A stretch of 38,184 nucleotides of DNA from IMG/VR virus record IMGVR_UViG_2531839529_000007. One strand, given 5' to 3'. The DNA is from a virus. Lineage: Duplodnaviria; Heunggongvirae; Uroviricota; Caudoviricetes. Below the pieces are notes generated by a model. That model saw only the letters and a program-made list of their open reading frames with translations. It did no database searches and was not told where the DNA came from. Shown piece by piece: positions 33,005-36,775 of the stretch; within the stretch, counting starts at the first letter, position 1, and every line of letters begins with the position of its first letter. The translations under genes and the position numbers were made by a program.

Positions 33005-33038
33005 CCGCAGGCTCGTCGTATGCAAGATCGTGCTGCGG
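33005..33038. terminator. Bidirectional hairpin terminator between pin and the convergent nuclease-domain gene (repeat copy A)
   Basis: CCGCAGGCTCG / CGTGCTGCGG imperfect stem with 13-nt loop; T-rich on both sides; first of three related hairpin copies. Confidence 0.5.
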
Positions 33039-33060
33039 TTTATGCTTATCACTTAAAGAC

Positions 33061-33834
33061 TCAAAAATTAGGTGAGTAACGGACCGGGGACATAGCTCCT
33101 TTTTTTCTTAATTCATCTGGTATTTTTTTTCCAAGATAAAGATTTGCTATTTTAGGTGGGGCTTCTCGACCTTCAAAACCATAGCGAGAACTTTGTGTTG
33201 CCTCAAAGTCAGGATCTTCGTCCCAGTATTTCATCGTAGGGAAATTTTCACGTGTTGATTTGAGCCATTTATCAGCAATGAAAACTCCTCGAACGATCCC
33301 CCTTACAGTAGCAAGAATGACTTCTGCTTGGCTGGCGCGAGAGACATTAATGCGCCAGCTAAATCGAACCGCATCATAAAGCTCTGAATCCTTTGCACTT
33401 CTGTTAACGGAAATCATTAATGCTTTATGATGAAATGTTATGGTTTCGGGTTGATATGTTGCTATCAACTCTTTGACATGCGCGGCGCCGAATTCATTGC
33501 TGCCAGCACCATTCATGATATTCGTTAACCCAGGGTAGGCATCAATAAGTGCTGCTTCAACTTCGTACGCCGTCTTTTCATCAGTCATTCCGTGTCGATG
33601 GATGACATGGATAACCTCAAGTCCTGCTAACCTTATTTCTCTAATTTGCTTTAGCTTGTTGCTCAGTAACTCGTCATCATCAGTCGCTGCCACTTCACCG
33701 CGCATATGGGCAAATACGCGGTTACCTTTGCCTTTCCCTACATAGAAGGTGCTTCCGTCCCTCGGATCAATCAATCGGTATACATACCAGCCAAGGTGTT
33801 CAATTACTCCAGAAGGAAACTCAGTAATATCCAT
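33061..33834 (-). CDS. GIY-YIG / T5orf172-like nuclease-domain protein, unknown function
   Basis: 257 aa from the ATG at 33834 (the track's 274-aa ORF starts at a TTG); N-terminal motif [33 protein letters not shown]-terminal region unrecognised; lower GC than the tail genes; sits directly after pin. Confidence 0.7.
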
Positions 33835-34025
33835 TTTGCAATATCTATGAATTATTTGTGAGACGTATATTAATGAACATTGCAAGGGCTCACAACCAGT
33901 AGTGTTGAGAAAACTATCGGGTAAATGAGGCTAATCCTTTGAATTTACATAGTAAAAAAAGATACTTTTCCTCATAGTGTGAGCTAATTTTATGTTTCGT
34001 TTGATGATCGGACCGGTCTCAAAAA

Positions 34026-34103
34026 CCGCAGGCACGTTGTATGCAAGAACGTGCTGTGGCTGGCTGGTGAACTTCCAATAGTGCGAATATTGAATGATGT
34101 CCA
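34026..34103. repeat. Hairpin repeat copy B (terminator-like) with about 45-nt extension shared with copy C
   Basis: CCGCAGGCACGTT-GTATGCAAG-AACGTGCTGTGG then CTGGCTGGTGAACTTCCAATAGTGCGAATATTGAATGAT; about 85% identical to copy C; on the minus strand the hairpin is followed by TTTTT. Confidence 0.55.
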
Positions 34104-34255
34104 GCCGTTACCGTTTTTACGTGTTTATTAGTGAACAAACCACTCGTCAGCAGACTCCTAGGTATGAACAAAAGTTTTAGCTGAAACTCTATCTGTGGTG
34201 CGCGTAACAGAAGTGTAATAAAAGGCCCTAGAAAAGGGCCTAAGATTAGCAAAGA

Positions 34256-34399
34256 TTATCCTCGATACTTAGAGGCAGGAATTTTGATAGGAAAGGCTGC
34301 CAAGCCTTTTTGACGAGCAAAGATCCGTTTACCTTTGACCGTAATAAAAGGACGGTAAATTGTGATGTATTCCTCAGATACAGCTTTTTCAATGGTCAT
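34256..34399 (-). CDS. Candidate small basic protein (47 aa)
   Basis: ATG at 34399; encodes MTIEKAVSEEYITIYRPFITVKGKRIFARQKGLAAFPIKIPASKYRG; followed on the minus strand by the terminator GGCCCT-TTTCT-AGGGCC plus TTTTATT (plus 34223-34245). Under the 60-aa track cut-off; weak SD. Confidence 0.3.
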   Translation of the reverse strand: MTIEKAVSEEYITIYRPFITVKGKRIFARQKGLAAFPIKIPASKYRG

Positions 34400-34425
34400 A
34401 TCGTGTTACCTGTAAAGTTTCGCTG

Positions 34426-34453
34426 TTGACAAAACCTAAGGTAAGCGTATACT
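34426..34453 (+). promoter_or_regulatory. Near-consensus sigma-70 promoter
   Basis: -35 TTGACA (34426-34431), 16-bp spacer, -10 TATACT (34448-34453); no plausible plus-strand ORF downstream. Confidence 0.5.
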
Positions 34454-34459
34454 CACAAC

Positions 34460-34522
34460 CGCCAAGTTTTTCGTATTTGCTTACGATAGGAGAAGCCAGC
34501 GACAGCGGTTCGCTGGCTTTTT
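34460..34522 (+). ncRNA. Candidate small RNA (about 60 nt)
   Basis: Predicted start just downstream of the promoter; ends at the intrinsic terminator GCCAGCG-ACAGCGGTT-CGCTGGC plus TTTTT (34495-34522); convergent with the ImmA 3' end. Confidence 0.35.
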
Positions 34523-34524
34523 CG

Positions 34525-35058: not shown

Positions 35059-35061
35059 TAT

Positions 35062-35412
35062 TCAGTCCTTTAACATTTTATTAAGCTTATCGAGTTGCTC
35101 TGGACTCAGGTCCTTAAATTTACGAGCAAAAACAAGCATTAGTTCTTTGTTCTGCTCATTTGCATCCGACATATCAACCTTAATGGACGGTTGAGAAATC
35201 TCTGCCTGTTTCTTGAGATTGATGATGTCTTGTCCGCTAAGCTCAAAAGTTGTTGCAATCGTATTTACTAATGAGTCCGGTATAGCTCTTTTGCCTAATT
35301 CAATGGCGGATAAGTAAGCCGAACTAACGCCTAACAGATCAGCCATATTTTTGAGCACCATACCCCGGTCTATTCTCATTTTTCTGAGAGTCTTACCAAA
35401 GCTAGTTACCAT
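35062..35412 (-). CDS. XRE-family helix-turn-helix transcriptional regulator
   Basis: 116 aa from the ATG at 35412 with an AGGAGG SD 6 nt upstream; HTH region LKNMADLLGVSSAYLSAIELGKR; the track ORF has a 9-aa upstream extension. Confidence 0.85.
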   Translation of the reverse strand: MVTSFGKTLRKMRIDRGMVLKNMADLLGVSSAYLSAIELGKRAIPDSLVNTIATTFELSGQDIINLKKQAEISQPSIKVDMSDANEQNKELMLVFARKFKDLSPEQLDKLNKMLKD

Positions 35413-35694
35413 GTTGCGCCTCCTACAATCCATGCTCACTTATACTAAAAACCAAACTCAAGATCAACAAAAATTGTAGAATTTTTTAATCTCAGCGTGT
35501 GATGACAATCTACATAAAATCATGAAATGGTGCAAGGCGTAACTTAAAAAATACCATATGTAGTGTCAATTTTATGTGCTGTATGGATATATGGGGTTGG
35601 TAAACTTTTGCTCTTTTGTGCTCCTCAGCTATATGGTTGTTTGATTTTTGAACATCTTGTGGAACATAAATTGGGTTTATGCTTTTCCCTTTCG

Positions 35695-35722
35695 GTGACA
35701 ACATGTTTATAGGATGTATAAT
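35695..35722 (+). promoter_or_regulatory. Sigma-70-type promoter for the BRO-N gene
   Basis: -35 GTGACA, 16-bp spacer, perfect -10 TATAAT (35717-35722); AGGAGG SD at 35733-35738; GTG start at 35746. Confidence 0.5.
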
Positions 35723-35745
35723 CCATAAAAAAAGGAGGGGATGGC

Positions 35746-36507
35746 GTGCAAAAGAATTTGTTACAATTATGCTACGAAGGAGAGTGTGGAGAAAATTATA
35801 TCCGTAGCATGAATGAAAAAGGGCAGATTTTTGTTTCACTTTCAGATGTGCTAAGAACGCTTTCTGCTGAGAACAGAAAACTGGATGGAAAGACTTCTCA
35901 AAGCTTGCTCACTGTAATAAGAGCGGTAATAAAAACTTTAGATCCAGATGAGTTTAGGAATGTTTCTCTTGTCGTGGATGGTGAAACTATCTCTGAGGTA
36001 TTTCTTACTGAACCAGGTCTATATAGAGTACTTGCTCAGGATACTACTGCTGCGGGGAAAAAATTCCAACGCTGGCTTTTTCATCAGGTCCTTCCGTCTA
36101 TTCGTGAATTTGGTGTATATCCTCCGCCACCTAAGCAAGAACGTTCAGAACTGAGTGCTTTTGCTAACAGTCTGCAGCAGACGGTTCAAGCATTGGTAAT
36201 GGAAATAGAAAAACGTGAAGAGTTAGAAAGTAGAGTAAACCAAGTTGAACTAAAAGTTAACTCGTTAGAAAGTTTAAGAGATTTGTCTCAGTTCAGAAGT
36301 GTTCCTCAACGATTGATGGAGTTAGGTTTGGATACCTATTCGGTTGAGGAGCTTTGGCAATGGTGTGAAAAATTGCGTAGTGAACGTGGAGCAGAAAGAA
36401 TTAAGTGCCCCTCCGGATTGAATATAAATTCTTGCTATCCATTAGCTTTGGTTGATGAAGCTATCGCTATATACCAGAAAGTAGTTGAGGCAAGAACACG
36501 TCAGTGA
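35746..36507 (+). CDS. BRO-N domain protein (antirepressor-like) with coiled-coil C-terminal region
   Basis: 253 aa; BRO-N-like N-terminal region (GQIFVSLSDVLRTLSAENRK...FRNVSLVVDGETISEVFLTEPGLYRVL); transcribed divergently from the XRE/ImmA pair. Confidence 0.75.
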   Translation: MQKNLLQLCYEGECGENYIRSMNEKGQIFVSLSDVLRTLSAENRKLDGKTSQSLLTVIRAVIKTLDPDEFRNVSLVVDGETISEVFLTEPGLYRVLAQDTTAAGKKFQRWLFHQVLPSIREFGVYPPPPKQERSELSAFANSLQQTVQALVMEIEKREELESRVNQVELKVNSLESLRDLSQFRSVPQRLMELGLDTYSVEELWQWCEKLRSERGAERIKCPSGLNINSCYPLALVDEAIAIYQKVVEARTRQ

Positions 36508-36522
36508 GCTTGAGGGAAAAAA

Positions 36523-36546
36523 AGCCCGCATAAGCGGGCTTTTTTA
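36523..36546 (+). terminator. Rho-independent terminator after the BRO-N gene
   Basis: GCCCGC-ATAA-GCGGGC stem-loop followed by TTTTTTAT. Confidence 0.8.
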
Positions 36547-36670
36547 TCACTCGGGAGCTGCGGCTCCTTTGCGTATCCTTTTTTGTCTCCTCACCGTCTG
36601 GTCGGTGTCCTGCTGAGACTGCTAACATCCTGTTTTTGTTGGTGTTGTCCTTACACCGTCCAATCATGAT

Positions 36671-36698
36671 TGGTGGAGCTGGCGGGAGTTGAACCCGC
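36671..36698 (-). other. tmRNA (ssrA) 3'-end fragment, att-core-like
   Basis: Minus strand reads GCGGGTTCAACTCCCGCCAGCTCCACCA: T-arm plus acceptor 3' strand plus CCA, matching my recollection of the E. coli tmRNA 3' end. No 5' part is present. Overlaps the palindrome CCAATCATGATTGG (36660-36673). Confidence 0.7.
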
Positions 36699-36775
36699 TG
36701 ACACGTCGTATGCAAGAACTTGCTGCGGCTGGATGGTGGACTTTCGATAGTGCGAGTATTGAATGATTTCCATCT
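36692..36775. repeat. Hairpin repeat copy C, fused to the tmRNA 3' fragment
   Basis: CCCGCTGACACGTC-GTATGCAAG-AACTTGCTGCGG then CTGGATGGTGGACTTTCGATAGTGCGAGTATTGAATGAT; direct repeat of copy B (34026-34103) and of the shorter copy A (33005-33038). Confidence 0.55.

What the first reader, a model, noticed from the sequence alone, without database searches (positions are those of the whole stretch)
33005..36775. Three direct repeats of a hairpin element, one fused to a tmRNA 3'-end fragment
Copies at 33005-33038, 34026-34103 and 36692-36775 share the core CCGCAG-GC-CGT-GTATGCAAGA-CGTGCTG-GG in the same orientation; B and C share a further roughly 45 nt. They act as terminators but also exactly bracket the two cargo cassettes (nuclease-domain gene; XRE/ImmA/BRO-N). 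Copy C is contiguous with 28 nt that read on the minus strand as the 3' end of tmRNA (T-arm, G-U-containing acceptor strand, CCA), the canonical attachment core of ssrA-integrating islands. This pattern suggests successive site-specific acquisitions, or recombination with an ssrA-type island, generating a cargo hotspot at the right end of the thrW prophage.
Basis: seen in the sequence. Interest (0 to 1): 0.55.

Follow-up and report, generated by a model that had tools for sequence, protein, structure and literature searches.

The report
Repeated terminator module flanking prophage cargo
The three repeats are copies of a very common lambda-type phage sequence (the tail end and stop signal of a dinI-like gene) that marks the joints where defence-gene cassettes are swapped, and the tmRNA piece is a leftover half attachment site showing that 3.7 kb of this thrW prophage came from a phage that integrates into the tmRNA gene: a neat but ordinary case of phage mosaicism.

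Summary
Three direct copies exist (A 33002-33038, B 34023-34120, C 36692-36789). The 28 nt at 36671-36698 are identical to the 3' end of genuine E. coli ssrA.

The repeat is not special to this locus. It occurs at about 19,900 places in 5,417 of 5,426 complete E. coli genomes. It is also in phage lambda (24162-24256, between ea31 and ea47), HK97, phi80 and Stx phages.

Family-wide it consists of a leftward intrinsic terminator hairpin plus a conserved segment of about 65 nt. In the commonest context this is the 3' UTR of an SOS-regulated dinI-like gene. Copy B still carries a dinI pseudogene remnant.

Window 33002-36698 is about 99% identical to the end of lambdoid prophages that sit in the real ssrA gene. 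Its last 139 nt match the attP left arm of phage LLS.

Related thrW prophages have pinE followed by one element and one cargo gene. The window is therefore that arrangement with a 3.65-kb ssrA-phage segment inserted.

Cassette boundaries in other genomes fall on the repeats. Cargo includes the known defence gene PD-T4-3.

The best mechanism is relaxed homologous recombination at conserved patches. The tmRNA joint may have been made by an integrase. Nothing supports integron-like acquisition. Interest is low to moderate.

The parts
32448..33002 (+). pinE, a Pin/Hin-type DNA invertase. It is the last backbone gene before the cargo region.
   Evidence: Pfam Resolvase 8.7e-52 plus HTH_7. Annotated pinE in the identical RefSeq genome.
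33002..33038 (.). Copy A: hairpin only (stem-loop 33005-33038), starting on the last base of the pinE stop codon. It terminates PD-T4-3 on the minus strand (followed by UUUCAUUU) and is followed by a T-rich stretch on the plus strand, after pinE.
   Evidence: minus strand -15.1 kcal/mol, z -2.8; plus strand -17.6 kcal/mol, z -1.9. It is the left breakpoint of the cassette block in other genomes (query position 103).
33061..33834 (-). Cargo cassette 1: the single-gene anti-phage defence system PD-T4-3, a LEM-3-like GIY-YIG nuclease.
   Evidence: PADLOC PD-T4-3, E 7e-140, full length. Pfam LEM-3_GIY-YIG 2e-14.
34023..34120 (-). Copy B: the full element. It comprises a leftward intrinsic terminator hairpin (34026-34059, followed on the minus strand by UUUUUG) and the conserved segment of about 65 nt (34060-34120).
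   Evidence: -31.2 kcal/mol, z -2.6. Family covariation. Cassette breakpoints at 34028-34044 and 34126-34129.
34128..34213 (-). Remnant of a dinI-like gene: the last ~85 nt, with TGG changed to TAG and a 15-nt deletion. It shows that copy B is the 3' end of a former dinI transcription unit.
   Evidence: Translation ...SAKTFVHT*ESADEWFVH*. Alignment to an intact dinI-like gene in L003. BLAST hits annotated 'DinI-like family protein'.
34256..35412 (-). Cargo cassette 2, leftward part: two small ORFs (34256-34399 and 34389-34538), an ImmA/IrrE metallopeptidase (34525-35058) and an XRE-type HTH protein (35062-35412).
   Evidence: Pfam Peptidase_M78 and HTH_19. PADLOC weak CapP/CapH-like hits. The same genes lie in the same order in phage LLS, genes 27-28.
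35746..36507 (+). Cargo cassette 2, rightward part: BRO-N domain protein.
   Evidence: Pfam Bro-N 2.4e-7. LLS gene 30 has the same size and position.
36516..36670 (-). Left arm of an ssrA-type attP: a strong bidirectional terminator (36516-36548) plus a trailer of about 120 nt. In ssrA lysogens this follows the CCA end of the tmRNA gene.
   Evidence: 93.5% identical to phage LLS over window 36560-36698. The same sequence abuts the genuine ssrA in L009. Fold.
36671..36698 (-). tmRNA (ssrA) 3'-end fragment of 28 nt: acceptor 3' strand, T-arm and CCA. It is a relic half attachment site. Homology to LLS attP and to real ssrA stops at 36698.
   Evidence: Identical to the annotated ssrA 3' end in L009. 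LLS is annotated 'tmRNA pseudogene' and 'attP' at this place, as described in PMC12315714. Rfam T-arm hit.
36692..36789 (-). Copy C: the full element, with a degenerate hairpin (36695-36728: two stem mismatches and no U-run) and the conserved 65-nt segment (36729-36789).
   Evidence: The fold is no better than shuffles (z 0.18).
36790..36888 (.). Extended right flank of the lambda/thrW-type element. It is conserved in lambda and in thrW prophages that lack the insert. The last cargo slot begins at about 36857-36888.
   Evidence: Alignments. Breakpoints at 36857/36864 and 36885-36888.
37192..38184 (+). Cargo cassette 3: trypsin-like S1 peptidase, in the last slot before the thrW attR. The attR lies about 680 nt beyond the window end.
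   Evidence: Pfam Trypsin_2 1.5e-17. The same slot holds retron Ec48 or DUF6602 in relatives. The thrW 3' repeat is at L002:11967.

Best explanation
What the repeat is. It is a conserved non-coding module of the lambdoid 'b region', the variable stretch between the tail-fibre genes and the attachment site. It reads on the minus strand. It consists of a segment of about 65 nt followed by a rho-independent terminator hairpin. In its commonest context it is the 3' UTR and terminator of an SOS-regulated dinI-like gene at the prophage end.

Why it brackets the cassettes. The module is shared at 80-95% identity by many co-resident lambdoid and e14-like prophages. It therefore acts as a homology patch, where relaxed homologous recombination (Red-beta or other Rad52-like recombinases, or RecA) swaps or inserts neighbouring cargo cassettes. 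The cassettes end up bracketed by full or partial copies.

What happened in this window (order inferred). The backbone is an e14-like thrW prophage with the layout pinE, one element, one cargo gene, attR. It acquired a 3.65-kb segment that is the attP-proximal end of an LLS-type lambdoid phage that integrates into ssrA. That segment runs: PD-T4-3, element B with its dinI remnant, ImmA/XRE, BRO-N, terminator, trailer, ssrA 3' end.

The two joints. The left joint lies in the hairpin, which is why hairpin A is duplicated. The right joint lies inside the T-arm of the attP core. It joins the phage's 28-nt ssrA fragment to the hairpin of the resident element, which shares TGAA(A/C)CCGC with it.

What is shown and what is inferred. 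Shown: the family membership of the repeats, their terminator nature, the ssrA-phage origin of the block, the empty-site configuration, and the variable cargo at the joints. Inferred: the enzymology of the joints and the order of events.
For: Abundance and range:
- About 19,925 places in 5,417 of 5,426 E. coli genomes, median 3 per genome.
- Present in lambda, HK97, phi80, phiP27 and Stx phages.
- A scan of one genome per species found it only in Escherichia and Shigella, apart from apparent lambda contamination.

Terminator:
- Across 88 distinct copies, 5 of the 10 hairpin pairs show compensatory changes on both sides. Across the whole structure tested, 25 cells carry such changes, a count reached by 0 of 500 shuffles, and 94.6% of cells are paired against 23-48% for slid registers.
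- 56 of 88 copies have at least 5 T in the 8 nt after the hairpin on the minus strand. On the plus strand only 1 of 88 copies reaches 4 T and none reaches 5.

Link to dinI:
- The stop codon of the dinI-like gene lies about 10 nt from the element. The gene has LexA boxes upstream.
- The 65-nt segment and the gene are conserved together, with column identity 0.9 or more.
- Copy B retains a dinI remnant.

Mosaic joint:
- 111 distinct contexts give 29 left-flank clusters, 25 right-flank clusters and 57 combinations.
- Some copies are recombinant within the element itself: L104 and L145 have a winC-type left half and a different right half.

ssrA-phage origin of the block:
- Hits covering window 33002-36698 at 98.9-99.3% identity. 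In L009 the block abuts the annotated ssrA and smpB.
- LLS attP homology over 36560-36698 at 93.5%. The paper on LLS states that it carries 29 bp of the ssrA 3' end (PMC12315714).

Empty site:
- ECOR29 and EH10-18-47 have the pinE stop codon, one full element and one cargo gene, then the LysR pseudogene and paoD flank of the thrW locus.

Variable cargo at the same joints:
- PD-T4-3 alone, followed by retron Ec67 or an AraC-family gene.
- Retron Ec48 after copy C.
- DUF2971 and DUF4236, an AAA ATPase, or an OLD-like nuclease to the left of the composite.

Mechanistic precedent:
- Rad52-like phage recombinases build mosaics through short, diverged homology between phages and defective prophages (PMC3945230).
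Against: - No recombination event was observed. Breakpoints are inferred from BLAST boundaries, which also stop where identity simply drops.
- The right joint has only about 9 nt of similarity and lies exactly in the att core. That fits an integrase-mediated event better than homologous recombination.
- Why the 65-nt segment stays so conserved where dinI is absent (lambda, Qin, thrW type) is not explained by a role as a passive homology patch.
- The sample of copies was collected with a fixed 26-nt pattern (20 specified bases) inside the 65-nt segment. This inflates its apparent conservation and limits covariation tests on its stem.
- Copy C is not a functional-looking terminator.
Confidence: 0.75

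Rival explanations
1. The tmRNA-hairpin joint was made by the tyrosine integrase of an LLS-type phage that used the terminator as a secondary attachment site (a prophage-in-prophage insertion). Homologous recombination between the two phages' tail-fibre and hairpin regions then deleted most of the incoming phage. This rivals only the enzymology of the right joint. The rest of the best explanation stands.
For: - The joint lies inside the annotated LLS core TGAACCCGC|GCCCGTAATTC, at the edge of the ssrA identity block.
- The resident site reads TGAAACCGC, matching 8 of 9 bases. K-12 Qin even has AGTTGAA, the sequence of the tmRNA T-loop, next to its hairpin.
- All composites share the same register, AGTTGA(A/G)(A/C)CCGCAG. 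They fall into two classes: a 'young' class with a perfect ssrA fragment and CCCGC, and an 'old' class with a decayed fragment and ACCGC.
- Prophages that integrate into att sites carried near the cargo end of lambda-like prophages are documented (PMC8112680).
Against: - No reciprocal joint (hairpin left flank, then CCCGTAATTC, gene 31 and int) was looked for or found.
- No LLS-type integrase is in the window.
- A single ancient microhomology event spread by flanking recombination would give the same register.
- The crossover position of LLS Int has not been determined experimentally.
Confidence: 0.3
2. The repeats are recombination sites of a dedicated cassette-capture system, analogous to integron attC hairpins. 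The two cassettes would then have been acquired by successive site-specific insertions.
For: - Hairpin-forming direct repeats bracket the cassettes.
- The hairpin loop is conserved (TATGCAAGA invariant in the 8-sequence alignment).
Against: - No integron-type or other cassette integrase lies nearby. The only recombinases in view are pinE, a tail-fibre invertase, and the thrW integrase 31 kb away.
- Cassettes lie in both orientations.
- Breakpoints occur at several positions within and beside the element (34028-34044, 34126-34129, 36857-36888).
- The element is the 3' UTR and terminator of dinI in most copies.
- The hairpin stem covaries like an RNA terminator and is followed by a U-run.
Confidence: 0.03
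3. The 65-nt segment plus hairpin is a functional RNA, for example a regulatory RNA processed from the dinI 3' UTR or an RNA-stability element. Its conservation would then reflect that function, and its position at cassette boundaries would be a by-product.
For: - Very high conservation, including in lambda and Qin where no dinI gene precedes it.
- On the minus strand it folds as a stem-loop followed by a terminator, the usual architecture of a small RNA 3' end.
- One stem pair shows a compensatory change in the winC type, GCTGG/CCAGC to GATGG/CCATC.
Against: - No Rfam family matches it.
- No conserved -35 lies upstream of the conserved TAAAAT; most copies score 2 of 6.
- Covariation in the upstream stem is weak: one pair shows compensatory changes, and 16 of 88 copies have an A-C mismatch at the closing pair.
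- The sample is biased by the search pattern.
- No expression data were available, and a full-text search for the sequence found no paper.
Confidence: 0.2

Closest known systems
Lambda b region, morons and exchangeable effector loci of lambdoid prophages
   Same: - The position is the same: between the tail-fibre (or invertase) genes and the attachment site.
- The content is variable accessory genes, each with its own terminator.
- The element itself is present in lambda at 24162-24256, between ea31 and ea47.
   Different: - The cargo here is mostly anti-phage defence (PD-T4-3, retrons) rather than type III effectors.
- I found no description of the conserved element of about 100 nt at the joints. 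It is not in Rfam, and a full-text sequence search returned nothing.
attP of the ssrA-integrating lambdoid phage LLS (PQ299149; PMC12315714)
   Same: - 93.5% identity over 139 nt: trailer plus ssrA 3' fragment.
- The neighbouring genes are the same: ImmA-like, XRE-like, a BRO-sized gene and an invertase upstream.
   Different: - Only the left half is present. Homology stops inside the core at 36698.
- There is no gene 31, integrase or excisionase to its right. The element and an S1 peptidase follow instead.
attB sequences inside prophages (prophage-in-prophage; Nakamura et al. 2021, PMC8112680)
   Same: An attachment-site sequence of chromosomal origin lies at the cargo end of a lambda-like prophage and spreads between prophages by recombination.
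   Different: - Those are attB copies with bacterial flanks, and they are used by incoming phages.
- Here the left flank is phage attP arm DNA, so this is a half-site scar. No phage was seen integrated in it.
Defence hotspots of P2-like prophages and P4-like satellites (Rousset 2022; Vassallo 2022, PMC9519451)
   Same: A fixed position in a prophage where unrelated defence systems replace one another, flanked by conserved sequence. PD-T4-3 comes from the Vassallo screen; I took that attribution from the PADLOC model name, because the system name was not found in the paper's main text.
   Different: - A different phage family (lambdoid and e14-like) and a different position.
- The anchors are a repeated non-coding terminator module, not conserved protein genes.
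Integron attC sites
   Same: Imperfect hairpin repeats separate the cassettes.
   Different: - No IntI integrase is present.
- Cassette orientation is mixed and breakpoints are variable.
- The hairpins behave as RNA terminators with U-runs.

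Membership tests
Rho-independent (intrinsic) terminator | A stable G+C-rich stem-loop supported by covariation | tested here: met
   At family level, 5 of 10 hairpin pairs have compensatory changes; across the whole tested structure 25 cells carry such changes, reached by 0 of 500 shuffles. A and B fold with z -2.8 and -2.6. C does not (z 0.18).
Rho-independent (intrinsic) terminator | A U-run immediately 3' of the stem, downstream of a gene on the same strand | tested here: met
   On the minus strand, 56 of 88 copies have at least 5 T in the next 8 nt; on the plus strand only 1 of 88 reaches 4 T and none reaches 5. 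A follows PD-T4-3. B follows the dinI remnant and the ImmA operon. C has GGGUUCAAC and no gene upstream, so the feature is not met for C.
Functional attP of an ssrA-integrating phage (LLS type) | An identity block with the 3' end of ssrA | tested here: met
   28 of 28 nt are identical to the annotated ssrA in L009. LLS has 29 bp.
Functional attP of an ssrA-integrating phage (LLS type) | Both arms flank the core, with the cognate integrase and excisionase adjacent | tested here: not met
   Homology to LLS ends at 36698, inside the core. The right arm, gene 31 and int are absent. The only integrase is the thrW-side one at 1459-2622. The site is therefore a half-site relic.
tmRNA gene (ssrA) | A full RNA of about 360 nt with the 5' tRNA-like half, tag reading frame and pseudoknots | tested here: not met
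   ARAGORN finds only tRNA-Thr in the window. Rfam tmRNA matches model positions 347-363 only, at 16.3 bits against a gathering score of 47.
Prophage cargo or defence hotspot (moron-type region) | The same position in related prophages holds different, unrelated accessory genes, including known defence systems | tested here: met
   PD-T4-3 at 7e-140. Retron Ec48, retron Ec67, DUF6602, an AAA ATPase, an OLD-like nuclease, and DUF2971 with DUF4236 occupy the same joints in relatives.
Integron-like cassette array | A dedicated integrase and uniform attC-type recombination points | tested here: not met
   No such integrase is among the ORFs or annotations. Breakpoints lie at several positions in and beside the element.
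3' UTR of a prophage dinI-like gene | Lies directly downstream of a dinI-like ORF that has LexA boxes | tested here: met
   In L003 the stop codon is about 10 nt from the element and two LexA boxes lie upstream. 35 of 103 sampled contexts are of this type. In the window only copy B keeps a dinI remnant. C and A do not.
Independent small-RNA gene | Its own promoter at a fixed distance and a detectable transcript | tested here: inconclusive
   No conserved -35 lies upstream of the conserved TAAAAT. Transcripts cannot be tested with these tools.

The most novel reading that the evidence does not exclude
The element of about 100 nt is more than a passive terminator. It would be a selected 'linker' of lambdoid phages, a functional RNA derived from the dinI 3' UTR and/or a preferred recombination substrate. 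It is kept even in lambda, Qin and thrW prophages that have lost dinI. It is what makes the b region a defence-gene exchange hotspot. In addition, its hairpin resembles the tmRNA T-arm, so it would serve as a secondary attachment site for ssrA-specific integrases, letting whole phages or their cargo ends insert into resident prophages.
Probability: 0.2. Interest if true: 0.55.

Novelty: new member of a known kind. Interest (0 to 1): 0.3.

Why it matters
The locus gives a concrete, base-level example of how defence genes (PD-T4-3, retrons, proteases) move between temperate phages that have different integration sites. It also identifies a short conserved non-coding module, present even in phage lambda and in nearly every E. 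coli genome, that marks the joints of that exchange.

In practice the element could serve as an anchor for mining cargo and defence cassettes in lambdoid prophages. The relic tmRNA half-site is a useful tracer of recombination between ssrA-integrating and thrW-integrating phages. None of this overturns current views of phage mosaicism.

Tried and rejected
- **thrW attR inside the window.** No repeat of the tRNA-Thr 3' end is present. It lies about 680 nt past the window end, in the identical genome.
- **A CsrA-sponge RNA in the GGA-rich trailer 36549-36667 (minus strand).** The only support is a sub-threshold RsmZ hit (24 bits against a cut-off of 44) and a fold dominated by the terminator. 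The stretch is better explained as the ssrA 3' trailer supplied by the phage.
- **An independent small RNA with TAAAAT as its -10.** No conserved -35 was found.
- **A small ORF in the element.** Reading the copies by eye, single-base indels between copies and a stop codon in some copies argue against coding.
- **A Chi site.** GCTGGTGA and GATGGTGG in the element are near-Chi, not Chi. None of the copies I read carried the exact octamer GCTGGTGG.
- **Lambda Int arm-type site resemblance (CACTAT).** In lambda the element is 3.5 kb from attP, so I dropped this.
- **The element as a diverged upstream part of a tmRNA gene.** Rfam sees nothing beyond the T-arm.
- **Automatic RNAalifold on 88 copies.** It gave a meaningless 4-pair structure because of gap placement. 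I counted a hand-defined structure instead.
- **Full-text search for the element sequence.** No papers were found. Two further literature searches turned up no description of the element; one search did yield the De Paepe recombination paper used above.
- **A synthetic pinE-A/C-S1 query.** No genome contains that exact empty junction followed by the S1 peptidase. However, pinE followed by one full element and other cargo does exist.

Full report
**1. The observation**

The window is E. coli DNA. It is 100% identical to strain FDAARGOS_1284 and several other strains over 32900-37200. tRNA-Thr (thrW) lies at 1369-1444, followed by an integrase ORF at 1459-2622. Downstream is a prophage with Mu/e14-like baseplate and tail-fibre genes and pinE.

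The repeat finder reports three direct copies of a 37-nt unit at 33002-33038 (A), 34023-34059 (B) and 36692-36728 (C), 84-89% identical. B and C also align over 98 nt at 82%. The core pattern matches three times and never in 100 shuffles.

Immediately left of C, overlapping it by 7 nt, lies TGGTGGAGCTGGCGGGAGTTGAACCCGC at 36671-36698. This is the reverse complement of the last 28 nt of ssrA. It is identical to the 3' end of an annotated 363-nt tmRNA gene in E. coli PSS-10. Rfam recognises only the T-arm, below threshold, and ARAGORN finds no tmRNA gene. The corrections are that B and C share more sequence than stated, and that C's hairpin is degenerate.

**2. What the repeat is**

The element is one of the commonest non-coding sequences of E. 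coli prophages. A 161-nt query around C finds about 19,925 places in 5,417 of 5,426 complete genomes, with a median of 3 per genome.

- In K-12 one copy lies at the very end of Qin, between ynfT and the truncated ydfJ.
- Among phage records it occurs in lambda (24162-24256, between ea31 and ea47), HK97, HK106, phi80, phiP27, mEp460 and many Stx phages.
- A pattern scan of one genome per species found it only in Escherichia and Shigella. The other hits were low-coverage contigs in unrelated genera, many carrying the lambda variant of the element, which looks like lambda DNA contamination.

I aligned 88 distinct copies.

- In the hairpin, 5 of 10 base pairs carry compensatory double changes. Across the whole tested structure, 25 cells carry such changes, a count that no shuffle out of 500 reached.
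- 94.6% of cells are paired, against 23-48% when the 3' partners are slid by 1-3 columns.
- A T-run follows the hairpin on the minus strand in most copies: 56 of 88 have at least 5 T in the next 8 nt. On the plus strand only 1 of 88 reaches 4 T and none reaches 5.

The hairpin is therefore a leftward rho-independent terminator.

Upstream of it on the minus strand lies a highly conserved segment of about 65 nt, ending in GTAAAATC. It can form a stem-loop (GGCTGG...CCAGCC) with only weak covariation. It matches no Rfam family. No conserved -35 lies upstream of its TAAAAT, so it does not look like an independent gene.

In the largest context class (35 of 103 sampled), the element starts about 10 nt after the stop codon of a dinI-like gene. 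That gene has LexA boxes upstream. Gene and 65-nt segment are conserved together, the hairpin is more variable, and the DNA beyond the hairpin is unrelated. The element is thus the 3' UTR and terminator of an SOS-regulated dinI-like gene at the prophage end.

In the window, copy B still carries the last ~85 nt of such a gene (34128-34213). The remnant has a TGG-to-TAG change and a 15-nt deletion.

**3. What the tmRNA piece is**

Window 36560-36698 is 93.5% identical to phage LLS (PQ299149). There the region is annotated 'tmRNA pseudogene' and 'attP TGAACCCGCGCCCGTAATTC', followed by a hypothetical gene, the integrase and the excisionase. The LLS paper states that the phage carries 29 bp identical to the ssrA 3' end and should integrate there (PMC12315714). 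Upstream of attP, LLS also has the same gene set: an invertase, ORFs the size of ImmA and XRE, and an ORF the size of BRO-N.

In other E. coli genomes the whole block 33002-36698 recurs at 98.9-99.3% identity. In strain PSS-10 it follows a lambdoid tail-fibre assembly gene and ends directly in the annotated ssrA gene, with smpB next to it.

The block is therefore the attP-proximal end of an ssrA-integrating lambdoid phage. The terminator at 36516-36548 and the trailer at 36549-36670 are the 3' flank that such a phage supplies to the tmRNA gene. In the window the homology stops at 36698, inside the att core, and the element follows. This is a half-site relic, not a functional attP and not a tmRNA gene.

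**4. How the window was built**

Related e14-like prophages at the same chromosomal locus (ECOR29 and EH10-18-47, with the LysR pseudogene and paoD to the right) have a simpler layout. The pinE stop codon is followed by one full element: hairpin, 65-nt segment and right flank up to the equivalent of window ~36885. Then come one cargo gene and the prophage end.

- Copy A equals the left part of that single element.
- Copy C equals its right part.
- The window is therefore that arrangement plus 3.65 kb inserted, with the hairpin duplicated.

The thrW attR itself lies about 680 nt beyond the window end.

Cassette boundaries in other genomes coincide with the repeats.

- The PD-T4-3 cassette occurs in about 600 genomes. 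Its left boundary is at 33002. Its right boundary is inside hairpin B (34028-34044) or at the end of element B (34126-34129).
- The left neighbour is either pinE or a tail-fibre assembly gene. The right neighbour can be retron Ec67 or an AraC-family gene.
- After copy C the last slot holds an S1 peptidase here, retron Ec48 in NS-NP030 and DUF6602 in EH10-18-47.
- To the left of composites of tmRNA fragment plus element in prophages next to prfC, sitABCD and thrW, the cargo is an AAA ATPase, an OLD-like nuclease, or DUF2971 with DUF4236.

Across 111 distinct contexts, 29 left-flank and 25 right-flank clusters occur in 57 combinations. Some copies are recombinant inside the element.

The cargo here is as follows.

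- PD-T4-3, a validated single-gene defence system (PADLOC 7e-140).
- An ImmA/XRE pair with weak CapP/CapH similarity.
- A BRO-N protein.
- A trypsin-like peptidase.

**5. Mechanism**

The many-to-many flank pattern, breakpoints inside a shared patch of 80-95% identity, and the absence of any cassette recombinase all fit relaxed homologous recombination. This kind of recombination between lambdoid phages and defective prophages has been shown experimentally and depends on Rad52-like recombinases (PMC3945230).

The right joint of the insert is different. It has only about 9 nt of similarity (TGAACCCGC against TGAAACCGC) and lies in the T-arm part of the att core. All composites share the same register. 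They fall into a class with a perfect ssrA fragment (this window, NS-NP030 and a few viral contigs) and a class with a decayed fragment carrying a 2-nt deletion.

This is compatible with use of the terminator as a secondary attachment site by an LLS-type integrase, followed by deletion. Attachment sites carried at the cargo end of lambda-like prophages, and used by incoming phages, are documented (PMC8112680). It is equally compatible with one or two old microhomology events spread by flanking recombination. I could not decide between these. I give the integrase route about 0.3.

An integron-like capture system is very unlikely. There is no integrase, cassette orientations are mixed, breakpoints vary, and the hairpins have terminator features.

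**6. Comparison with what is known, and novelty**

Functionally this is the lambdoid b region, or moron and exchangeable-locus region, acting as a defence hotspot. It is analogous to the P2 and P4 hotspots. The tmRNA piece is a relic of a known kind of attP.

What I did not find described is the conserved dinI 3' UTR and terminator element itself as the recurring joint. It is absent from Rfam and from a full-text search for its sequence. I could not search subscription-journal literature, so older lambda or HK97 papers may mention it.

I file the finding as a new member of a known kind, with low-to-moderate interest.

**7. Limits**

- The sample of copies was gathered with a fixed 26-nt pattern with 20 specified bases. 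This biases conservation estimates for the 65-nt segment and removes most power to detect covariation in its stem.
- BLAST boundaries approximate breakpoints. They do not prove them.
- No expression or recombination data are available.

Noticed in passing
window 7130-8743 (minus strand): A group II intron sits inside the prophage early region. Rfam Intron_gpII (domains V/VI) matches at 7130-7216 with 64.9 bits, above threshold. A 507-aa ORF lies directly upstream on the same strand (7220-8743) and is presumably the intron-encoded reverse transcriptase.
   Followed up: no
window 36549-36667 (minus strand): The ssrA trailer supplied by the phage carries six or seven GGA motifs, at least one in a predicted hairpin loop (GGUGU-AAGGACA-ACACC). 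It gives a sub-threshold PrrB/RsmZ hit (24.3 bits against 44, E 0.011). This is probably just the tmRNA 3' trailer, but CsrA binding was not excluded.
   Followed up: partly
window 37094-37135: A possible fourth, badly decayed partial copy of the 65-nt segment (TAGTGCGAGCACTGAA, 88% to the copy-C reference over 16 nt) lies just upstream of the S1 peptidase gene. It travels with that cassette in other genomes.
   Followed up: partly
L011 (E. coli JNEC-KY178), 5001-6330: The S1 peptidase cassette (from window ~36857 onward, 99.8% identical) also sits at a quite different position of a lambdoid prophage. It lies between a DUF2254 gene and hokD, upstream of the antiterminator and lysis genes. It therefore moves independently of the element.
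   Followed up: no
L100:930-1045 (IMG/VR contig): A variant in which the ssrA trailer (GTCCAATCATGAT) is joined directly to the 65-nt segment. Both the tmRNA fragment and the hairpin are missing, which looks like a deletion derivative of the composite.
   Followed up: no
loci L016, L020, L024, L026, L034-L037, L039, L043, L046-L048 and others: The element pattern appears on short, roughly 1x-coverage contigs in assemblies of unrelated genera (Streptomyces, Enterococcus, Pseudoxanthomonas, Paenibacillus, Vibrio). Sixteen of the sampled copies are identical to the lambda variant. This looks like phage lambda DNA contamination of those assemblies.
   Followed up: partly
L177 (phage Ayreon), 2501-2601: Phage Ayreon carries the trailer (87.8% over window 36560-36666) without the tmRNA fragment. 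It lies about 450 nt from a differently oriented integrase gene. The trailer may therefore accompany attachment sites of more than one specificity.
   Followed up: no
window 31319-32376 and 32448-33002: Oppositely oriented tail-fibre and tail-fibre-assembly ORFs lie next to pinE. This indicates an invertible host-range segment as in e14, Mu and P1. The inversion sites were not mapped.
   Followed up: no
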